Shown in pieces: positions 3,500-64,000 of a stretch of 64,000 nt of DNA (the stretch's first letter is position 1; the number at the start of each line of letters is the position of its first letter). Source of the DNA: Cetorhinus maximus. Lineage: Eukaryota. The DNA lies in contig NC_135901.1 in NCBI RefSeq assembly GCF_964194155.1, positions 23,126,001-23,190,000 on the forward strand. Reading direction: 5' to 3'. The notes below the pieces were generated by a model. That model was not told the origin of the DNA and ran no database searches. It saw only the letters and a program-made list of their open reading frames with translations. Both the position numbers and the translations under genes were made by a program.

Positions 3500-3900
3500 C
3501 CATGTTCCCCCAGCTCCCCGCCGCTCTCACTGAGGCTGCGCTCAGCCTGGAGCCGTACCGCGCATGCAGGCGGCTTCCGGGGGCGGGGCTTTCCTGCGCG
3601 TTGCTGCCCTTCTGATGGAGATAGGGCGTATTCACTCGCGCGGAGAGTCCTGGGTAGCTTCATCCGCCATTATTCATAAACTGTCCGTAGGGTAAGACGT
3701 CTGTTCCAGTACTTTTGATGCAGTCCGGTGTTTAATCCGAGCGGCCCGATACCCTTGATGTTTCTGCCAGTGACAGGACCGGGTGAGCAGCCGCCATCCT
3801 TATAGGGGCAATGGGCAGTCTGGCGCATGCGCGGCCGCTATCTCCATAGGGGCAGGGCGCATGCGCGGCCATCCTCGGACCGGATGCAGGAAGAAAAGAT
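3500..3900 (+). promoter_or_regulatory. CpG-island promoter of ZNF unit A
   Basis: CpG-rich; NRF1-like GCGCATGCGC at ~3823 and ~3857; ETS+GC box cttccgggggcgggg at ~3574; YY1-like ccgccat. Confidence 0.7.
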
Positions 3901-4100
3901 GTTGTGAATTTCTGCCCTGGATTCACAGTGAAATTCCTCTGGAAACTCCTTTTACAGGTGGTTAGAACAGGAGGATTCCCAAGCGGGAACCTCAAACCAA
4001 ATATCATGTCATGATCTGACAGTCACTCGATCATCAGGACCTGAATATCATCGGCCTCTGAATGTGGAAGGTGAAATGTCTGTGGGCAAAGATTTCAGAT
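3900..4100 (+). other. Promoter-proximal copy of the ZNF acceptor/leader module
   Basis: aactccttttacag then ..ctcaaaccaaatatcatgtcatgatctgacagtcactcga..ggacctgaatatcatcggcctctgaatgtggaagg, matching the ZNF exon head. Confidence 0.75.
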
Positions 4101-4309
4101 ATTAGACTGGGAAACTTTTAATGATGTTTTCAGGTTAAATGTGAGACCAATTACATCGATCTCATTGGGTAGGTTGAAGAATTTGTTCTATGCAGACAAA
4201 TTAACTCGTGTGCTTAAGTAAACATACTCGGCAGCTAAAAGAGCAAACCGTTGAGCTGTGTTATTCGTGAGAGTTACTATCCCAGTTTTGGGTAAAGTTT
4301 TTTTGTCCA

Positions 4310-5662: not shown

Positions 5663-6373
5663 GGTATTAGGAATCAAAGAAAAAGGAAAACCAATTATCG
5701 AGATCTGTCAGAGTCACTCGATTCATCAGGAACTGAATGTCATCAGCCCTTGAATGTGGAAGGAGAAATGTTTGTCCGTTCTGTCTGAGGGAAAAAAATT
5801 TCAAACATCAGTGTGACTGGAAAAGATACACACACACGTGAGTGAGGGTGTTCCAGTGAACGGATTATGGAAAGAGCTTTGACTAGTTACACAGCCTGAG
5901 AAAGCATCACACCATTTACAGCAGGGAGATCCTGTACATGTGTTGTGTGTGTGGACGAGGCTTCAACTGGTTATCAAACCCAGAGAGATACATGGACACC
6001 CACATCCAAGAGAAACCGTGGAAATGTGGGGACTGTGGGAAGGGTTTTTGTTGCCCGCCTGAGTTGGAAACCCATCGATACGTTCACACTGGGGAGAAGC
6101 CGTTCACATGCTCCGAGTGTGGGAAGGGGTTCATTAAATCATTCAACCTGCAGACACATCAGCGGGGAGAGGCCATTCACCTGCCCTGAGTGTGGAAAGG
6201 GATTCACTCGTTTGACCCACCTGCGGACACACCAGCGAGTTCACACTGGGGAGAGGCCGTTCACCTGCTCCGATTGTGGGAAGCGATTCGTTAAGTCATC
6301 TAACTTGCTGACACACCAGAGAGTTCACACTGGCGAGATGCCATTTGCCTGCTCTGAGTGGGGCTTGTTGTAA
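5663..6373 (+). pseudogene. C2H2 zinc-finger pseudogene A
   Basis: Acceptor at 5662; about 4 TGEKP-linked fingers; family start ATG replaced by CAA (6007); frameshift near 6160; truncated at ~6360. Confidence 0.85.
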
Positions 6374-41149: not shown

Positions 41150-41900
41150 AATCAACCCTGCTGTCTGTCCTGAATGAATCCATTTCACTAACAAATGTTG
41201 AAATGTTTGCTCCACACCCACAGGGTTTCATCTGGTTAAAGCCACAAACAGAAAGATCCAGTTTTCTCCTAGAGTTTGACACAAATCAGCTTCCAAAATG
41301 ATGCAGAAGTTACAGCCAATGAAGGAGATCCGGGCTCAGCCCCGCCCCTCATTCGCTCCGATTGGTTGGAGGGCCATCCGTTCCCTCGCAGTCCTCGAAC
41401 CCCGCCCCCTCTTCCTATTAGTCCAGAGCTGCCGTCAATCACTCCCCAGTTCCTGTGAACTGGAGCATGCGCAGTGCGGGTGATGGCGGACAGTTGAGGC
41501 GGTTGTGTGGAAATTCTCAGCCGGTAAATTGCTGCCGGGCGGGTCATGAGGGAGGGAGGCAGTGGGATGGGAGTCTTCATAAACACCAGTGCGGGGCTTC
41601 TCCCTCCCGGGAACAGGTCCAGGTTAACGGACGCCATCCTGGGTCAGCGAGTGGAGGATGGTTCACATCAGAGGATGGGGGAGGGGGGACAATAAATAAG
41701 AGGTTACACTTTGGGCTCAAATCAATGAGGAATCTGGTCTGTGGGAAGGAAGGAAACCCTGGGAGGTGCGCGGGGAGGATTCAGAAACACCCGCTGGAGG
41801 CCCCAAACCCCTAACAACAACCTACACTGGAATCCTTACTTTCTGTGCCGCCATCTTGGTGAAACAACAGCGAGTGGGCGGGGCTACAGGGTCCCAGTGA
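41150..41900 (+). promoter_or_regulatory. CpG-island promoter of ZNF unit F
   Basis: CCAAT/ATTGG, GC boxes, NRF1-like agcatgcgca at ~41464, YY1 gccgccatctt at ~41847. Confidence 0.72.
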
Positions 41901-42784
41901 CCAGGAGAGAAAATGATTGATTCATTGATTATATTCTCCCTCTGCACAGAGAGGCTTGAGAACTCAACCTAGCCAGAATGGAGGGAAGGAGAAAACTGGC
42001 AGTTGGGGAAAGGAATGTTGGAGATGGTGTGATGAGTTTGGCAGGCTGACCAACAAAAATTAAAGGACACCCTGCCATGGGAGTCCATTTGAGTCGGTGG
42101 GAGGGTGTTGGGTGAGATGCTGACAGAGCTGTTGGAACAAAGAAACAGTAGGGGACAGGGTTCTGCACAATGAAAGGGGTCCAATTTAGGAGACAAACAG
42201 TGCCCAGCACCATGCAGCCTAGGATAGTTGACTTAAATACAGGGAAATCCCATAAATTAAGGGATGGCTGTTCACTCTGAGGTTTGGATTCCAGTACGAG
42301 GAGGAGGAAGAGTGTGTGGGATGAGGATTTACGGCTTTGCAGGAAAAAGTGAGGAAAACCGGTTCCATAGAAACTAGAATTGTCTGTTCAGAATTTCTGT
42401 CCTGCACTTACAGTGATGAGTTTTGTAAACTCCTTTTCCAGGGTATTAGAACTGGTGGATTTACAGACAGGAGGCTCAAACTGAACATCACAACATGATC
42501 TGACAGAGTCACTCAATTCACCTTTGAACGTGGAAGAAGAAATGTTTGTTTGTTCTGTCTGTGGGAAAAGATTTCAAACATCAGCGTGACTGGAAAAGCA
42601 CCGAGACACACACACCCGAGTGAGAGTGTTCCAGTGCACAAACTGTGGAAAGAGCTTTAACCAGTTACACAGCCTGAAAAAAAAATTACACTGTTTACAG
42701 TGGGGAGAAACCATACACGTGTTCTGTGCGTGGATGAGCTTCAACTGATTGTCCAACCAGGAGGGAGACAAACATACTGGCATC

Positions 42785-43375
42785 ATGGAGAAACTGTGGA
42801 AATGCGAGGACTGTGGTAAAGGATTCAATTCTTCATCTCGGCTGGAAATCCATCGACGCATTCACACTGGGGAGAAGCCATTCAGCTGTTCCGTGTGTGG
42901 GAAGGGATTCACTCAGTCATCTGGCCTTCGGTCACACCAGCGAGTTCACACTGAGAAGAAGCCATTCAGCTGCACAACCTGTGGAGAGAGGTTCAAGTCT
43001 TCATCCATCCTCACTGAACACCAGCGAATTCATACGGGTGGGAGACCATTCACTTGCTTCGTGTGTGGGAAGGGATTCACTCAGGTATTCGCCCTCCAGT
43101 CACACCACCGAATGCACACGAAGGAGAATCCATTCAGCTGTACTTCCTGTGGAAAGAGCTTCAGGCAGTCAATCGACCTCAATGAACACCAACGCACCCA
43201 CACTGGGGAGAAGCCGTTCACTTGCTCCATGTGTGGGAAGGGATTCCGTTGGTCATCCCAACTGCTGACACATCAGCGAGTTCACACCGGGAACAGACCG
43301 TTCACCTGCTCCTTGTGTGGGACGGGATTCACTCAGTCACAACACCTTCTGAGACACGAGCGGGTTCACAAGTGA
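42785..43375 (+). CDS. C2H2 zinc-finger protein F, 196 aa, 7 intact fingers
   Basis: ggcatcATGG Kozak; MEKLWKCEDC...HERVHK*; acceptor near 42441. Confidence 0.88.
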   Translation: MEKLWKCEDCGKGFNSSSRLEIHRRIHTGEKPFSCSVCGKGFTQSSGLRSHQRVHTEKKPFSCTTCGERFKSSSILTEHQRIHTGGRPFTCFVCGKGFTQVFALQSHHRMHTKENPFSCTSCGKSFRQSIDLNEHQRTHTGEKPFTCSMCGKGFRWSSQLLTHQRVHTGNRPFTCSLCGTGFTQSQHLLRHERVHK

Positions 43376-43819
43376 CTGCAGTGATTGGATTCTGCTGTTA
43401 TTGCTGCTGTTAATCACATCCAGGTCTGATAATCTGACAATATTTGGGTTGTTTCTGCTGATGTTAACAACCCTATAACTGACTGCAGTTTAATATTCTG
43501 GAGATGTCACAATGTCTCTTTTTAAAAATGCCATTTACAATCTTTCTGCTGAATTCAAGAATTCTCACCAGGAATTAGTTTGCAATAAAATTAGGAACTT
43601 TTGCTGCAATCCTAAATTGATCTTTGATGCAAAATCTACAATTCAATGTCTGAGAGGTTCCACTGGTTAACATCACCAATTAGAAAGTGCTGATTAATCC
43701 TTGCTAACAATTCTTACCGATTGCCACATTCTTCACTTGCCACCTCCATTTTGAAATTAAATTATCAAGGAACATGAAACAAAACAGTAAAATATTTTAC
43801 AGACACATCAATAAAAGCT

Positions 43820-44705
43820 TCATCAATCAACATTGATATTGATGAAGCTTGGAAGTCGCTGACTCAATCATTTCTGACACAGCAGCAGCAACATTTGGTA
43901 AAGGTGGAACCCACAACAAAGGCTGGTTTGAGACCTACTCAGCAAAGATGACATTTGTCTTTGAAGCAAAAAGCAAAGCCTACCTGATGCACAACATAAA
44001 CCCAACAGCTAGAACACTGCATAACTTGAAAGTAGCCAAGACATTTGTGCAAAAGACAGGGAGATGCAGTGTAAATAAACACTGGATCAGCCTACACTAA
44101 GAAATCCAAACTGCCTGTGGAATCTCCATGCTATGTATGATGGGATCAAGAGGGCGCTTGGTCCGACCATCACCCAAGTTGACTCCCTGAAATTGGCAGA
44201 TGGTGAAGTACTCACTGACAGAAGTCCTGCTGGGTTGAACACTATTGTGAGCTGTACTCCCATGAGACAGACACCTCCCAGTCTCTGTTTGACTCTCTCC
44301 AGCAGCTTCTTGTCATGGGTGAGTTGGACAAGGAAATTTCATCACGAGCTGGAAAAGGCCATTGATTGCTCAGCAAGCAGAAAGGCTCCTGGCTAGGATG
44401 GAATTCCAGCTGATATGCTCAAGCATGGAAAGTCCTATTTACTGCCACACCTTCATGACCTCAATTCCACAGGACATGCATGATTCAAAAGTCAGCATAT
44501 TATGCAAAAACAATTGTGGCGAAAGAGATTGCAACAACTGCAGGGTCATCTCACTCCTTAATGTCACAGGAACGACCTTCGCTAGGGTCACGCTTAAAAC
44601 ACTTTATCTACTTGCAGACTCAGTGTGTCCAGAAGCACAGTACGGTTTCTGTGCTGGCAGATCGGCAGTGAACATGATCACCATACGCCAGTTACAAGAG
44701 AAAGT
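43820..44705 (+). mobile_element. RTE-clade LINE fragment
   Basis: KAPG.DGIPA; IPQDMHD; DCNN.R.ISLL.V.G..FARV; PEAQYGF..GRS..MI..RQLQEK. Confidence 0.8.
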
Positions 44706-48095: not shown

Positions 48096-48596
48096 GTGGG
48101 GAGGATGAATCGAAGTTGATAGTTATCACATTTACTGGAAAAGGTTTTAATATTTATTCTTGGTGGCAGCTCAACAGTTTGGTTTGCTGATTCTGATAAT
48201 TCTAGTAGCTTTAGTATGTTATCTACGGTATGTAATCAAGAAATTGGGAAAACAATTTCGTAGTTTAGGAATAGCTGGGTTAGTCAGAAATCAGTTATGA
48301 GGAATCAATAAGGATATTCTCTTCTCAAGGTGTGGCGATCTGTAAAAAAATTATTGAACATTATAGGAATAGCTCCTTCCCTCTCGCTCATGGAGAAAGA
48401 TTCCATAGCAGCTTGCTGGGTGACAAACACAGGACAGACCTGTTCTCTCTGCCAAGGACATGTCTCTAGCACAGGCCCTGAAATGGAACATTTCTAACTC
48501 TGATATAATTCAATCTCATAACCCATACGTAAACCATTTGTCTGTGTAAAGGTTCAAACAGGCTCTTTTTGGACAAGTAAGAGGTTTCAAGGTGAT

Positions 48597-49428
48597 CCAC
48601 ACTTTGGCTTCAATATCCCCACACTCTGGCTTCAATACCCCCACACTCTGGCTTCAATACCCACACACTGGCTTCAACACCCACACTTTGGCTTCAACGC
48701 CCACACACTGGCTTCAACACCCACACTCTGGCTTCAACACCCACACACTGGCTTCAACACCCACACTCTGGCTTCAACACCTCCACACACTGGCTTCAAC
48801 ACCCACACTCTGGCTTCAACACCCACACTCTGGCATCAACACCCACACTCTGGCTTCAATACCCACACTCTGGCATCAACACCCACACTCTGGCTTCAAC
48901 ACCCACACACTGGCTTCAACACCCACACTCTGGCTTCAATACCCCCACACTCTGGCATCAACACCCACACTTTGGCTTCAATATTCCCACACTCTGGCTT
49001 CAATACCCCCACACTCTGGCTTCAATACCCACACACTGGCTTCAACACCCACACTTTGGCTTCAACGCCCACACACTGGCTTCAACACCCACACTCTGGC
49101 TTCAACACCCACACACTGGCTTCAACACCCACACTCTGGCTTCAACACCTCCACACACTGGCTTCAACACCCACACTCTGGCTTCAACACCCACACTCTG
49201 GCATCAACACCCACACTCTGGCTTCAACACCCACACACTGGCTTCAACACCCACACTCTGGCTTCAATACCCCCACACTCTGGCATCAACACCCACACTC
49301 TGGCTTCAATACCCCCACACTCTGGCTTCAACACCCACACTCTGGCTTCAATACCCCCACACTCTGGCTTCAACACCCACACTCTGGCATCAACACCCAC
49401 AGTCTGGCTTCAACACCCACACACTGGC
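48597..49428. repeat. 20-bp minisatellite, ~40 copies
   Basis: Unit tggcttcaacacccacactc with 22-bp variants. Confidence 0.95.
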
Positions 49429-49948
49429 TCACATCAGTGAATTGTTCAGAGAAGACGACAGCCACCAGCTACAGAGACCAGCACTCACTCTGTGTCATCT
49501 ATTTGTCCCTAGGGACCGGTAAGCCATTCTCATCTGTCACAGATTGTGTGTTTTTTTCTGTCCATTATGCATCATTTTTAAACAGTTGCTTCTTAATAAA
49601 CCAGCTGAAAATCACGTATGAGCTCGAGCCGCTTTTTTGGGTATTCTGTGACACCTGGATCAAAAATCTTCCTGACCACTGCATGCAGTTCCAGTCACCA
49701 TATTATAAAAAAGATATTGAGGCTTGAGAGAGGGAGCAGAGAAGATTCACAATGATGATACTAGAAATGTGTAGGTTTATATATTAGGAAAGGATTGACA
49801 GACTGGGTCTCTTGAGAAATGAAGGCTCAGGGGGATTTGATAGAGGTCTTTAAAATTATGAAAGGGTTTGATGGAGAAGATACAGAGAGAATGTTTCCAC
49901 TTGTGGGGAAGAGAATGACTAGAGACCATCAACGTAAGATAGTCAGTG

Positions 49949-54420: not shown

Positions 54421-54779
54421 GTCAACAGGAGAGAATGTTGTGAATTTCTATTCTGGACTGACTGGGATGGGATTTGGAAACTCCTTTCACTCCTTTTTAG
54501 AAGGGGAGGATTTACACAGCAAACTCAAACCAAAAATGATCTCTTTTGATATAGGTTTTTAAAATTCTGAATGGGGTGGCCTATCCAATACTGGGAGCCT
54601 TCTTCAGTTCTCTGCCCAAAGGCAGCTCTGACTGACAGCCTCACAATCTCCACCACCGGTAGGGGAAGGAGGCAGGTCCAGAATCCACCCCAGCCGGAGT
54701 TGGGATTTAATCCTGTGCTGTTGGCACCAACATGATCCACAACGGTCATCCAGCCGCATGTAATCCATGTTGTTGTGGC

Positions 54780-55030: not shown

Positions 55031-55360
55031 TCCACTGCACCACAACCTCCCGAAAACACAATAGAGACTAATAAATCCAACAGGGAAATAGGAGATCTTT
55101 CTTTCCTCAGGCAGTAGTTAAAATGTGGAACTCACTACTACTGGAAGTGGTTGACACAAATAACTTAAGGTGCTTTCAAAAGGAAACGATGAGAATATGA
55201 GATAAAAGGGATTTAAAAGATAAGCTGAAAGGCTGAGATGAGGTTGGCAGAACAGCAGGAGACTTGTGTGGATTGGAAACTCTTGCAGCGACCGGATGGG
55301 CCAAATGGCCCGTTTGTTTAATGTATATTATGTGTAATTCATTGTGAACTTATCTTACAG

Positions 55361-56807
55361 GGTATTAGAAGAGGAGGATTTGCAGTCAGGAAAAACAAAC
55401 CAAACCTCATGTCAAAATCTGAAAGTCACTCAATTCATCGGGATCTGAAGATTTGTACATCTGAAGGGATTTAATTGACCATCTCAGCTGGAAACTGGTG
55501 ACAGGCCGTTCACCACCTCCTGTGTGAAGGGATTGATACAGCTGGTAAACATGCTGACACGACAGTGAGCTCGCAATAGTGAGAGCCCGTCCACCTGCTC
55601 CTGTGTGGGAAGAAATTCATGTGTTCATCTAACCTGCTGGCACACCAGCTCGATCATGATCATGAGGATCCTCTTCAATGCTCTGACTCTGAGAAAAGCT
55701 TTGAAACCTCTGAGGAACTGGTCCAACACCAGCTCCTTCACATACACAAGAAGGCCGTTCAGCTGCTCTCACTGTGGGGAGTCGTTCAGCAAGTCAGTGC
55801 ATCTCACTGAGCACCAGCGAGTTCACACCAAGGACAGGCCGTTCAGCTGCTCCTAGTGTGGGAAGAGATTCACTCAGTCCTCCCATTACACTGAGCACCA
55901 ATTGGTTCACTCAGAAAAGAGACCTTTTAAATGTACTGAATGTGAGAAGACCTTTAAAAGAAGCATTAATCTGCTGAGACACCAGTGCATTCACATTGGG
56001 GAGAGGCCGTTCCCCTGCTCGGTATGTGGGAAGAGATTCACTCATTCATTCCACCTTATGATACATAAGTGAGTTCACACTGGAGAGAGACTATTCACCT
56101 GCTCCCTGTGTGGGAAGGAATACAGTCAGTCATCTGATCTTATGATACACAAGCGATTTCACATTGGGGAGAGACCATTCAGCTGCTCCGAGTGTGGGAA
56201 GGGATTCACTCGTTCAACCCATCTTTCAATGCACAAGCGAATTCACACTGGGGAGAGACCATTCCCTTGCTCTGTGTGTGGGAAGAGATTCACTCAGTCA
56301 TCCACCCTGCTAATACACAAGAGAGTTCATACCGGGGAGAGACCATTCATCGGCTTCGTGTGCGGGAAGAGCTTCCCTCGTTTATCCCACGTTTTGATAC
56401 ACGAACGCGTTCACACCGGGGAGAGGCCGTACATTTGCCCCGTGTGCGGGAGGGGATTTACTTGTTTACACCACCTGCTGAGACATCAGCCTGTTCACAC
56501 CGGGGAGAGGGCGTTCATGTGCTCTGTGTGTGGGAAATGTTTCACTGAGTTGTCCAGCCTCCAGAGACACCAACGCATCCACACTGGGGAGAGGCCGTTC
56601 ACCTGCTCCGTGTGTGGGAAGAAATTTGCTCAGTCATTTGATCTGGTGAGACACGAGCAAGTTCACACCAGGAAGAGGCTGCTCACCTGCTCCGTGTGTG
56701 AGAAGAGATTTACTTGCTCATCCAGCCTGCTGAAACACCAGCAGCTTCACATGCCACCGACAAAGTTGGATTGTGTTGTTGCTGCTGTGGATCATGTCCA
56801 GGACTGA
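55361..56807 (+). pseudogene. C2H2 zinc-finger gene G (5' fingers decayed; residual ORF 56142-56807 with 6 intact fingers)
   Basis: Stops at ~55854 and ~56070 in upstream fingers; ORF runs into the family 3'UTR motif. Confidence 0.75.
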
Positions 56808-58580
56808 ACCTTTTCTCCTTTCTAACTTCAGATTATTTCAATTCTCAGACCTTCTGTTACTCTCAAGGACAATTTCCAGTTCCCCATACCTTCCAGAGTA
56901 TTTTCTCTAGCCTTGGGATCCAGGGAATGTATCGGTAACACACGTGGGATCACTAAACACAAAACCCAATCTATTAATTACTTTCAGGGACTGGAGTTAG
57001 TGTGTGTCCCACAGCACCTCTCTCACCTTTGAACATCACACCTGTAAAGGAGGTTTAAATTTAAATCCTCATAAACTTAACAGGAACCAGCAGGCTGATG
57101 AGACTCTTTTAAACTGTTAGTGTGCTCCTGTACTGCTCTGTATTTTGCCTGTAATGGAAAATGCCTGAATCCTTTGTCCCAGTGGAACCTTTGCTGTTAT
57201 GAAATGTGGGAGAATATTAATGAGTCTCTCATCCTTGCCCATGTCTGCTGCAATTGTGTAGAAAGGGGATGTGTAAAAGAGCTGGTCTTCATATGGAGAT
57301 GTGAACCAAGGAAATGGTATCTGTGTGTGATAGTAACACAGGCTTGTGCTCACACCCAGAACAATGCACAGATATCCTTGTGGTTATGGTTTGAGCAGGG
57401 TCAGATCACGGATGTAGTGAACAAGTTAATTATAAATATCTCCAGTGTAGCTGCAGCTTTTTAGATCAGAGCTGGGGAGAAGAGAGCTCTGAATCCACTG
57501 TATTATCTGTTCTCTGGATTGGGTAACTACATTTTTTCAATATAACGGTGTTTTATTCAAGAAATACATTCACAGCTGAAAGACTGAATTGTAACTTACA
57601 GCAAGAAAATTCATAAAATTTAATGTAGAGATATAAAATCTAGTTAAAAACATGGGGAATATGTGACAATCTGTCATAACAAAATTCGGCAAACAAATGC
57701 AGCAGGTAACAGGGAAGCGGTGGACGAGATATTAGAGGAAGGAATATTGAATTAAAATTATATTAAAATTACAGACCAATCCACCATTCCTATATTACAG
57801 GCTCTGAAATATATAAATGATGACATTTATAAGTACTTCATTGAGGATTGGAACCATGGAAGGAATTACTCTGTATGATTGCAGTGCTGTTAATAAAGTC
57901 AGGAAAAGACAATCTGATGTTGTGAGCTTGATTATCTGGTGTCTGAAACCACAAGATTCAATATTTAGAGTCAACAAGATGAACAAGGAAACACATCACA
58001 GCCCAATACTCCAGCTCAATATTCACAGGAGAAAGTCTGTTATCGAACACCTCGAGTGGTCAGAACAGAGGAAGATCCCAACTGTAAGAAACCCTCCAAT
58101 CATTTGTAAATATCTTTCAAATGTCAACAGGTTCCAACTGTCAGTTTCCATTACATTGAAGTCAATGGAAGGTGAGAGCGGTTGAAGGTTCCATATTGAA
58201 ATGCAACTTCTTGTTATTGCCTAACATTGGTAGACGCAAGAATATCACACAAACATTTTAAATCCTCGTACCATAATTATCATAGTCATTTTCAGATTGG
58301 AAACTTAAACCTGCTGTTTCACTCTCAATCAGGAACATATCACAGTTTTACACCAATCCCTGATTTGACAGCACGTGTCCAGCATTCACCTTTGTTCTTC
58401 CTGACTCTAAACCCAGTTGTAAAGGAACTTTCTGTTCTGTGTCTAGGAGTTCTGAACCATGGAAGAGAGCGGCTGTGACACATTTCTTCCACACCTCAGG
58501 ATTAACCCATAAGTTCAGTCCTGGATGTGATTAACAGCAGCAATAAGGACACAACACAAACCCAGTCATCACTAGTGGAC

Positions 58581-63689: not shown

Positions 63690-64000
63690 ACTTCAGGGGC
63701 CTGTGACCAGGAGAGAAAATTATTGACTCGTTGATTTTACTCTCACTCTGCACACAGGACAGAAAACTGAATTCAGCCAGTCTTGGGTGGGGGTGAGGGG
63801 AGCTTGGGGGGAAGCTCAGAGTGGAGACTTCAGATGGTGCAACAGGTTTGGATTCCAGCCTAGGGATGAGGGAGTGTGTGTGGGACAGGGATTTATAGCT
63901 CTGAGTAGATGAGAGGAAAAATGTTCCACAGAAACTAGAATTGTTTGTTCTGAATTAGTTTTGTAAATTCCTTTTCCAGGGTATTAGAAGAGGAGGATTT
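63690..64000 (+). other. Intron and acceptor of the next ZNF unit I (exon starts 63980)
   Basis: tgaccaggagagaaaat.. as at 41899 and 60015(-); ccttttccag|ggtattagaagaggaggattt. Confidence 0.8.

What the first reader, a model, noticed from the sequence alone, without database searches (positions are those of the whole stretch)
42442..42787. 5' leader built from three fossil zinc fingers with family-wide shared TGA codons and a uORF
Seen: upstream of the start, the exon reads MFVCSVCGKRFQTSA*LEKHRDTH..FQC..CGKSFNQLHSL..YTCSV..FN*. The first TGA recurs at 5814, 13712, 42587 and 59606(-). The second lies exactly 39 nt before the start codon position in B (10049), C (13841), F (42746) and H (59449); it is CGA in E (34823) and TGG in A. 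In F, ATG 42542 to TGA 42589 is a 15-aa uORF in frame with the main ORF. Inference: the subfamily radiated from an ancestor whose first fingers were already dead, and the leader may now act as a shared translational control element. The first stop sits in a UGA-C context, which is known to be relatively leaky.
Basis: partly seen in the sequence, partly recalled or inferred. Interest (0 to 1): 0.7.

Follow-up and report, generated by a model that had tools for sequence, protein, structure and literature searches.

The report
Fossil zinc fingers in shark leaders
Hundreds of shark zinc-finger genes carry three dead fingers with shared stop codons in front of their likely start codon, and because this stretch now mutates like unselected DNA it is most likely an old inherited remnant, not a device that controls translation.

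Summary
Window 42442-42784 is a spacer plus three dead C2H2 fingers ahead of a 196-aa, 7-finger ORF whose ATG replaced a finger-linker glycine. The start motif occurs 827 times in this genome. Sawshark and horn shark gene models end at the first stop, so the founder likely predates the split of modern sharks. In 87 paralogue pairs chosen on the ORF, the fossil changed at 0.98 of the neutral expectation (0.91-1.05); coding positions 1-2 of intact pairs at 0.40. There is no codon signature, the stops are kept no better than out-of-frame TGAs, and the uATG is in frame in only 14 of 81 intact genes (not in F's two closest paralogues). Best reading: an inherited, neutrally decaying 5' leader (0.8). 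Unexplained: tree-wide divergence is lower than in neighbouring sequence. The scan already noted this family at eight or more other places in this genome.

The parts
42250..42441 (+). Intron end shared across the family, ending in a pyrimidine tract and AG (42440-42441); likely splice acceptor
   Evidence: Homology of most copies stops about 200 nt upstream; AG shows 1 change over 87 intact copies against about 5-6 per background site; public shark gene models join different upstream sequences at this point. No spliced joint seen in RNA-like contigs.
42442..42541 (+). Former protein spacer (frame VLELVDLQTGGSN*...; open in the family majority, shortened by about 21 nt in F), now likely untranslated
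   Evidence: observed/expected change 0.97 in intact pairs
42495..42503 (+). 2-aa upstream ORF, out of frame, F-specific
42542..42589 (+). 15-aa upstream ORF (MFVCSVCGKRFQTSA*) = first half of fossil finger 1
   Evidence: uATG kept in 61 of 81 intact and 60 of 94 broken copies (p=0.14)
42542..42628 (+). Fossil finger 1 with TGA (42587-42589) at helix position +3, followed by a length-variable CA run
   Evidence: TGA in 214 of 274 copies
42629..42713 (+). Fossil finger 2; first Cys is TGC here (42635) but TGA in 148 of 274 copies; +1 slip in the A-run 42677-42685
42714..42784 (+). Fossil finger 3 with TGA (42746-42748) at helix position -1, a -1 slip near 42737 and a 4-aa uORF from ATG 42734
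   Evidence: TGA in 219 of 274 copies; CGA/CAA and coding in the short-leader sister subfamily
42785..43375 (+). Main ORF, 196 aa, 7 C2H2 fingers, no other domain; ATG sits where the sister subfamily has the Gly/Arg codon of the TGEKP linker, in a strong context (A at -3, G at +4)
   Evidence: A at -3 in 78 of 81 intact copies; change per site drops at the ATG; positions 1-2 at 0.40 of neutral

Best explanation
This stretch is the decayed front of an older zinc-finger exon (spacer plus three fingers) that hundreds of shark genes most likely inherited from one founder, and it now mutates at the neutral rate as a likely untranslated leader. Inferred steps: in the founder, fingers 1 and 3 took nonsense mutations (finger 3 by CGA to TGA), the Gly codon of the next TGEKP linker became ATG in a ready-made strong context, and the shortened finger-only gene was then multiplied by tandem and segmental duplication with exchange between paralogues. 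Ribosomes would reach the main ATG by leaky scanning or re-initiation past about 3.7 mostly weak uATGs; any dampening would be a by-product. Slow shark mutation keeps the fossil legible.
For: Shown: 827 exact start motifs, nearly all listed ones on contig C24. First and last TGA in 214 and 219 of 274 sampled full leaders against 2 CAA each, so not repeated CpG decay; non-TGA states are scattered tips among TGA copies. A sister clade of 14 short-leader genes (support 0.98) keeps finger 3 coding with CGA/CAA and mostly GGG/AGG at the start position. In 28 intact-intact pairs chosen on the ORF, context-corrected observed/expected change is 0.99 (0.80-1.21) for the fossil, 0.40 (0.33-0.50) for ORF positions 1-2, with 3.1 against 0.2 indels per kb; pooled over 87 pairs 776/794 = 0.98 (0.91-1.05). 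Private mutations in a 33-copy clade: fossil 19.5 per kb, spacer 18.6, ORF fourfold sites 18.4, ORF positions 1-2 11.2. No codon-position signature in the fossil frame (p=0.14) but a clear one in the ORF (p=0.0009). In-frame TGAs kept in 0.79 and 0.83 of intact genes, other TGA triplets of the leader in 0.70-0.88. No copy of 274 is open from acceptor to start (longest 261 nt). Sawshark (P0024, P0180) and horn shark (P0025) models end at ...FQTSV, the first stop; a white shark model (P0027) ends at the last stop.
Against: Tree-wide, in 54 copies sampled without regard to the leader, the fossil shows fewer changes per site (5.2) than spacer (6.5, p=0.004), acceptor-proximal intron (6.9), ORF fourfold sites (8.7, only 20 sites) and farther intron (10.7); one search shows the same trend. 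A sawshark model is 93% identical in amino acids to copy L006 over 55 residues, high for unselected DNA even in sharks, though both are best-of-many picks. The uATG is kept slightly more often in intact genes (61 of 81 against 60 of 94, p=0.14). Splicing at 42442 and translation from 42785 were not observed directly.
Confidence: 0.8

Rival explanations
1. The fossil fingers carry a weak, diffuse or formerly stronger constraint at the nucleotide level (for example a family-wide protein-binding site on DNA or RNA), not centred on the stops.
For: Tree-wide change 0.5-0.8 of neighbouring regions; very high likeness of the best sawshark copies.
Against: Recent pairs allow at most about 9% constraint; private mutations equal those of neutral sites; the deficit is the same in broken copies; linkage between variants decays with distance (rho -0.11, p=0.0005), so mosaic exchange with other lineages can inflate the flanks; no folding signal (z 0.11) and no Rfam family at a meaningful E-value.
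Confidence: 0.1
2. The uORF ending at the first TGA is a selected, family-wide translational control element.
For: uATG present in 199 of 274 copies; the modal uORF is 15 aa (27 of 52 intact genes with the uATG); every leader examined has at least one uATG in intact genes (mean 3.7).
Against: uATG retention 0.75 is at the 60th percentile of all leader triplets and not significantly higher in intact genes; uATG load equal in intact and broken genes (3.66, 3.70); uORF lengths run from 6 to over 100 codons; stop-keeping TGA to TAA changes are not favoured (9 TAA against 11 TGG and 7 CGA at the first stop). The same data do detect constraint on the acceptor AG and on the ORF.
Confidence: 0.07
3. 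The TGA codons are read through or recoded (leaky UGA-C, or selenocysteine at the Cys position), giving longer proteins with extra fingers.
For: All three shared stops are TGA; one lies at a Cys; the first is followed by C in 123 of the 129 copies in the five commonest contexts.
Against: Frame kept in 14 of 81 intact genes, and 13 of those 14 need two or more recodings; indels at the neutral rate; no codon signature; context is UGA CUG G, not the UGA CUA consensus (PMC4359377, passages); no SECIS match in 41200-44000.
Confidence: 0.02

Closest known systems
Lineage-specific tandem C2H2 ZNF expansions: FiNZ-ZNFs of cyprinid fish (Wells et al. 2023, PMC10547256; passages read)
   Same: Hundreds of genes packed on one chromosome; one 3' exon holding the finger array behind a splice acceptor; many young duplicates and broken copies.
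   Different: FiNZ genes join an upstream 28-aa domain exon in frame to the fingers. Here no sampled copy is open from acceptor to fingers (0 of 274), so the protein is predicted to be fingers only. The main text has 0 hits for shark, Chondrichthyes or cartilaginous; its supplements were not read.
Human ZNF252 (PMC2865497; passages read)
   Same: A ZNF gene whose N-terminal part is broken by stops and left in the transcript outside the main ORF, with degenerate fingers in untranslated sequence.
   Different: A single decaying gene with dead fingers in the 3' UTR; here the broken front is the founder state of a family with at least 827 start motifs, shared with distant sharks.
KRAB-ZNF and KRAB-like ZNF clusters (PMC11603059; passages read)
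   Same: Tandem Kruppel-type fingers with TGEKP linkers, spacer between acceptor and first finger.
   Different: No KRAB or other effector match in the main ORF or spacer; that paper places the KRAB-ZNF origin in bony fishes.
Functional stop-codon readthrough, UGA CUA(G) (PMC4359377; passages read)
   Same: UGA followed by C.
   Different: CUG not CUA, explained by the finger's Leu codon; frame beyond the stop is not kept.

Membership tests
Tandem C2H2 (Kruppel-type) zinc-finger gene, Pfam PF00096 | Array of C-x2-C-x12-H-x3-H fingers with TGEKP-type linkers | tested here: met
   7 PF00096 stretches, E 2.8e-41
Tandem C2H2 (Kruppel-type) zinc-finger gene, Pfam PF00096 | Purifying selection on the finger ORF | tested here: met
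   Positions 1-2 at 0.40 of neutral, 0.2 indels per kb in intact pairs
KRAB-, KRAB-like or FiNZ-ZNF | N-terminal effector domain joined in frame to the finger exon | tested here: not met
   No open frame from acceptor to start in 274 copies; no effector Pfam in ORF, spacer or three other-shark models. Upstream exons of F were not located and no FiNZ profile was run.
Conserved regulatory uORF | uATG and stop kept above neutral background | tested here: not met
   60th, 73rd and 86th percentile of leader triplets; same as other TGA triplets; no intact-broken difference
Conserved regulatory uORF | Conserved length, frame or peptide | tested here: not met
   15 aa in 27 of 52; no codon signature; frame free
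Conserved regulatory uORF | Translated, and changes output of the main ORF | not testable with these tools
   Needs Ribo-seq and reporters
Functional readthrough or selenoprotein | Frame and codon constraint kept beyond the stop | tested here: not met
   14 of 81 in frame; neutral indels
Functional readthrough or selenoprotein | UGA CUA(G) motif or SECIS element | tested here: not met
   UGA CUG G; two chance-level Rfam hits only, E 0.77 and 0.81
5' untranslated leader | Present in the spliced mRNA upstream of the start | tested here: inconclusive
   Contigs of RNA-like runs of relatives cover it, no joint at 42442 listed; public gene models use the acceptor

The most novel reading that the evidence does not exclude
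The fossil fingers were co-opted early in shark history as a family-wide cis element, a tag on DNA or RNA or a built-in uORF brake, that sets the expression or chromatin state of a thousand effector-less zinc-finger genes at once and is still weakly maintained in some lineages.
Probability: 0.1. Interest if true: 0.7.

Novelty: new variant of a known kind. Interest (0 to 1): 0.3.

Why it matters
As a regulatory element it does not hold up. As natural history it is useful: a chromosome-scale shark ZNF family appears to descend from one truncated founder and to make finger-only proteins, which raises the question of how such proteins act without a KRAB- or FiNZ-like domain. The leader is also a ready neutral marker carried by hundreds of paralogues, good for dating duplications and measuring gene conversion in sharks, and it explains odd automated gene models that end at ...FQTSV or jump over this stretch. 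Five literature searches on shark or degenerate ZNF genes listed no paper whose title or abstract start describes this leader; subscription journals and supplements were not covered.

Tried and rejected
RNA evidence: no listed holder is on record as RNA. Contigs of five RNA-like runs of related organisms (four studies) cover the fossil; several low-depth contigs run across 42442 unspliced; none of the 7 joints or the 15 of 99 shown is at 42442 or skips the fossil; depth was not used. A loose end at 41590 that looked like a splice turned out to be genomic in 29 paralogous loci. First pair test chose partners on the leader itself, was biased and was replaced (87 of 90 pairs kept; 3 lacked upstream homology). 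Of 327 unique hits, 53 were dropped before the counts for covering under 80% of the leader or being under 76% identical; 20 of these are short-leader or deleted forms shown. Many loci were picked by patterns inside the leader, so searches also give samples picked by the ORF start or blind. Read-through protein search of F gave generic fingers and one catshark model. Repeated independent CpG decay rejected (CAA in 2 of 274 at each stop). Copy L320 on contig C37 lacks all three TGAs but is frameshifted and nested in the tree, so not an intact ancestor. 20 of 150 listed protein hits were looked up: none was from a ray, skate or chimaera; three named records (P0036, P0056, P0178) were left out of the cross-species argument because their independence from G000 is not shown.

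Full report
Setting. The window holds a cluster of tandem C2H2 zinc-finger genes among LINE-like fragments (the LINE label is recalled from the translations). It lies on a 65-Mb contig of a 4.0-Gb genome. The spacer peptide finds close matches in named shark gene models (Pristiophorus, Heterodontus, Scyliorhinus, Stegostoma, Mustelus, Carcharodon), so the genome is a shark's.

Observation. In F the segment starts at 42442 behind a pyrimidine tract and AG, runs through a 100-nt spacer, three broken fingers and reaches ATG 42785, which opens 196 aa with 7 fingers and nothing else.

Family. The start motif matches 827 times, the first-stop flanks 361 times, the finger-2 flanks 377 times; listed places are almost all on contig C24. 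From 2.0 Mb of fetched sequence I recovered 327 unique hits, 274 with a full leader, 116 of them with an intact ORF. First TGA 214, middle TGA 148 (TGC 90), last TGA 219 of 274; in a blind contiguous sample 19, 8 and 15 of 22.

Origin. Had the stops arisen many times by CpG decay, CAA should be about as common as TGA; it occurs in 2 of 274 at each site, and copies without TGA are scattered tips among TGA copies on a tree built with the three codons masked. A sister clade of 14 short-leader genes, which includes E, lacks fingers 1-2, keeps finger 3 open with CGA, CAA or related codons, has mostly GGG or AGG where the others have the start ATG, and reads MEGKS... from an ATG further up. So finger 3 was coding, its stop is likely CGA to TGA, and the start codon likely arose from the TGEKP linker. 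Sawshark models P0024 and P0180 and horn shark model P0025 end exactly at ...FQTSV, and white shark model P0027 ends at ...GQGFN; I see the protein ends, not the codons. Sawsharks and horn sharks lie on either side of the deepest split among living sharks (recalled, roughly 200-250 million years), so the founder is likely at least that old. A catshark model has Trp at the first stop, a state also seen in 11 of 274 copies here.

Is the leader selected? Positive controls work: ORF positions 1-2 change at 0.40 of the neutral expectation in 28 intact-intact pairs and the acceptor AG changes once over 87 intact copies. With partners chosen on the ORF and rates corrected for trinucleotide context from far flanks, the fossil stands at 0.99 (0.80-1.21) in intact pairs, 1.00 in 24 mixed and 0.95 in 35 broken pairs, pooled 0.98 (0.91-1.05, Poisson interval). 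Indels run at 3.1 per kb against 0.2 in the ORF. Codon positions in the old frame do not differ. Private mutations in a 33-copy clade are as dense in the fossil as in spacer and fourfold sites. The uATG, first and last TGA are kept in 0.75, 0.79 and 0.83 of 81 intact genes, within the range of other TGA triplets of the leader (0.70-0.88, leaving aside the polymorphic middle stop) and no better than in 94 broken genes.

uORF and readthrough. The uATG is in frame in 14 of 81 intact genes, and 13 of those have two or more stops before the start; F's closest paralogues L002 and L003 are out of frame by one base. The uORF is 15 aa in 27 of 52 intact genes that have it. The first stop reads UGA CUG G because Leu follows in every finger; the high-readthrough consensus is UGA CUA (PMC4359377). 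Rfam finds nothing real and the leader folds like its shuffles. Intact and broken genes carry the same uATG load (3.66, 3.70); the main ATG has A at -3 in 78 of 81 intact genes. Scanning past or re-initiating after these uORFs is inferred, not shown.

What does not fit. Across the whole tree the fossil has fewer changes than its neighbours (5.2 against 6.5 in the spacer, 6.9 and 10.7 in the intron, 8.7 at 20 fourfold sites), in intact and broken copies alike. I read this as genealogy: family-wide homology ends about 200 nt upstream, linkage decays with distance, the middle stop needs about 32 changes on the tree, and the excess in the flanks is in shared, not private, variants. Copies differ from the family majority by 3-21%, mean 11%. 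Whale and zebra shark differ by dS 0.061-0.111 over about 50 million years (PMC13100897), which by my arithmetic predicts 12-28% over 200-250 million years; the observed mean is at the low edge and the best sawshark copy (93% amino-acid identity to L006) is lower still, though it is a best-of-many pick and a directly measured shark rate is very low (7e-10 per generation, PMC10587355). Weak or ancient constraint is therefore not excluded.

Transcript. Public models join several different upstream sequences to this same point, which supports the acceptor. RNA-like contigs of relatives cover the fossil but show no joint at 42442 among those listed, so that the fossil lies in mature mRNA remains an inference.

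Comparison and verdict. The gene is an ordinary tandem C2H2 ZNF in a lineage-specific expansion like the FiNZ family but fails the test for an in-frame effector exon; ZNF252 is a single-gene precedent for dead parts left untranslated. Eight earlier notes of this scan on the same genome reach the same reading; they are not independent support. Inherited neutral fossil 0.8; weak diffuse constraint 0.1; selected uORF 0.07; recoding 0.02. Interest 0.3.

Noticed in passing
window 34650-35620 (+, gene E) and 20570-19690 (-, gene D); L268, L331, L334, L336, L339: Short-leader sister subfamily: fingers 1-2 deleted, finger 3 coding, start at MEGKS...; 14 copies form one clade. D has a tandem repeat in place of its acceptor region.
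   Followed up: yes
window 10240-10007 (-, gene B): Separate deletion of fossil fingers 1-2 that keeps the last TGA and the ATG; the 14-finger ORF is intact, so fingers 1-2 and the uORF are dispensable here.
   Followed up: partly
family-wide, position of window 42635: TGC/TGA polymorphism at the first Cys of finger 2 needs about 32 changes on the tree and linkage decays with distance, pointing to gene conversion or recombination among paralogues.
   Followed up: partly
P0180 (Pristiophorus): Gene model in which a truncated histone H2A frame is joined through a short exon to this spacer and ends at the first stop; P0024 shares the short exon.
   Followed up: no
P0032, P0043 (Heterodontus): Models jump from the spacer or finger 1 straight to the end of finger 3, giving an open frame into the fingers; could be a genomic deletion, a modelling artefact or real splicing of the fossil.
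   Followed up: no
window 3899-4113, 30254-30475, 54432-54540 and 63916-64000 (+): Truncated copies holding only the intron end and part of the leader, without a finger array directly behind.
   Followed up: no
window 55340-56810 (+, gene G): Same acceptor and spacer but a different set of decayed fingers, with in-frame TAG and TAA inside the array.
   Followed up: no
window 41300-41450 and 41550-42030: Promoter-like stretch with CCAAT-type and YY1-like motifs (labels recalled) shared by 17-43 of about 139 copies and echoed in a catshark model; exon 1 of F not located.
   Followed up: partly
contig C24, 0.3-13 Mb against 33.6-38.8 Mb: Leaders differ from the family majority by 14.5% near the contig end and 7.5% in the middle; fits a positional rate gradient but is confounded by how the copies were sampled.
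   Followed up: partly
274 sampled full-leader copies: 158 have a broken or startless ORF by my rule: high birth-and-death turnover. Out-of-frame uATGs overlapping the start occur in 40 of 76 intact and 23 of 61 broken genes with an ATG.
   Followed up: partly
window 48520-49520: About 1 kb tandem repeat open in three frames.
   Followed up: no
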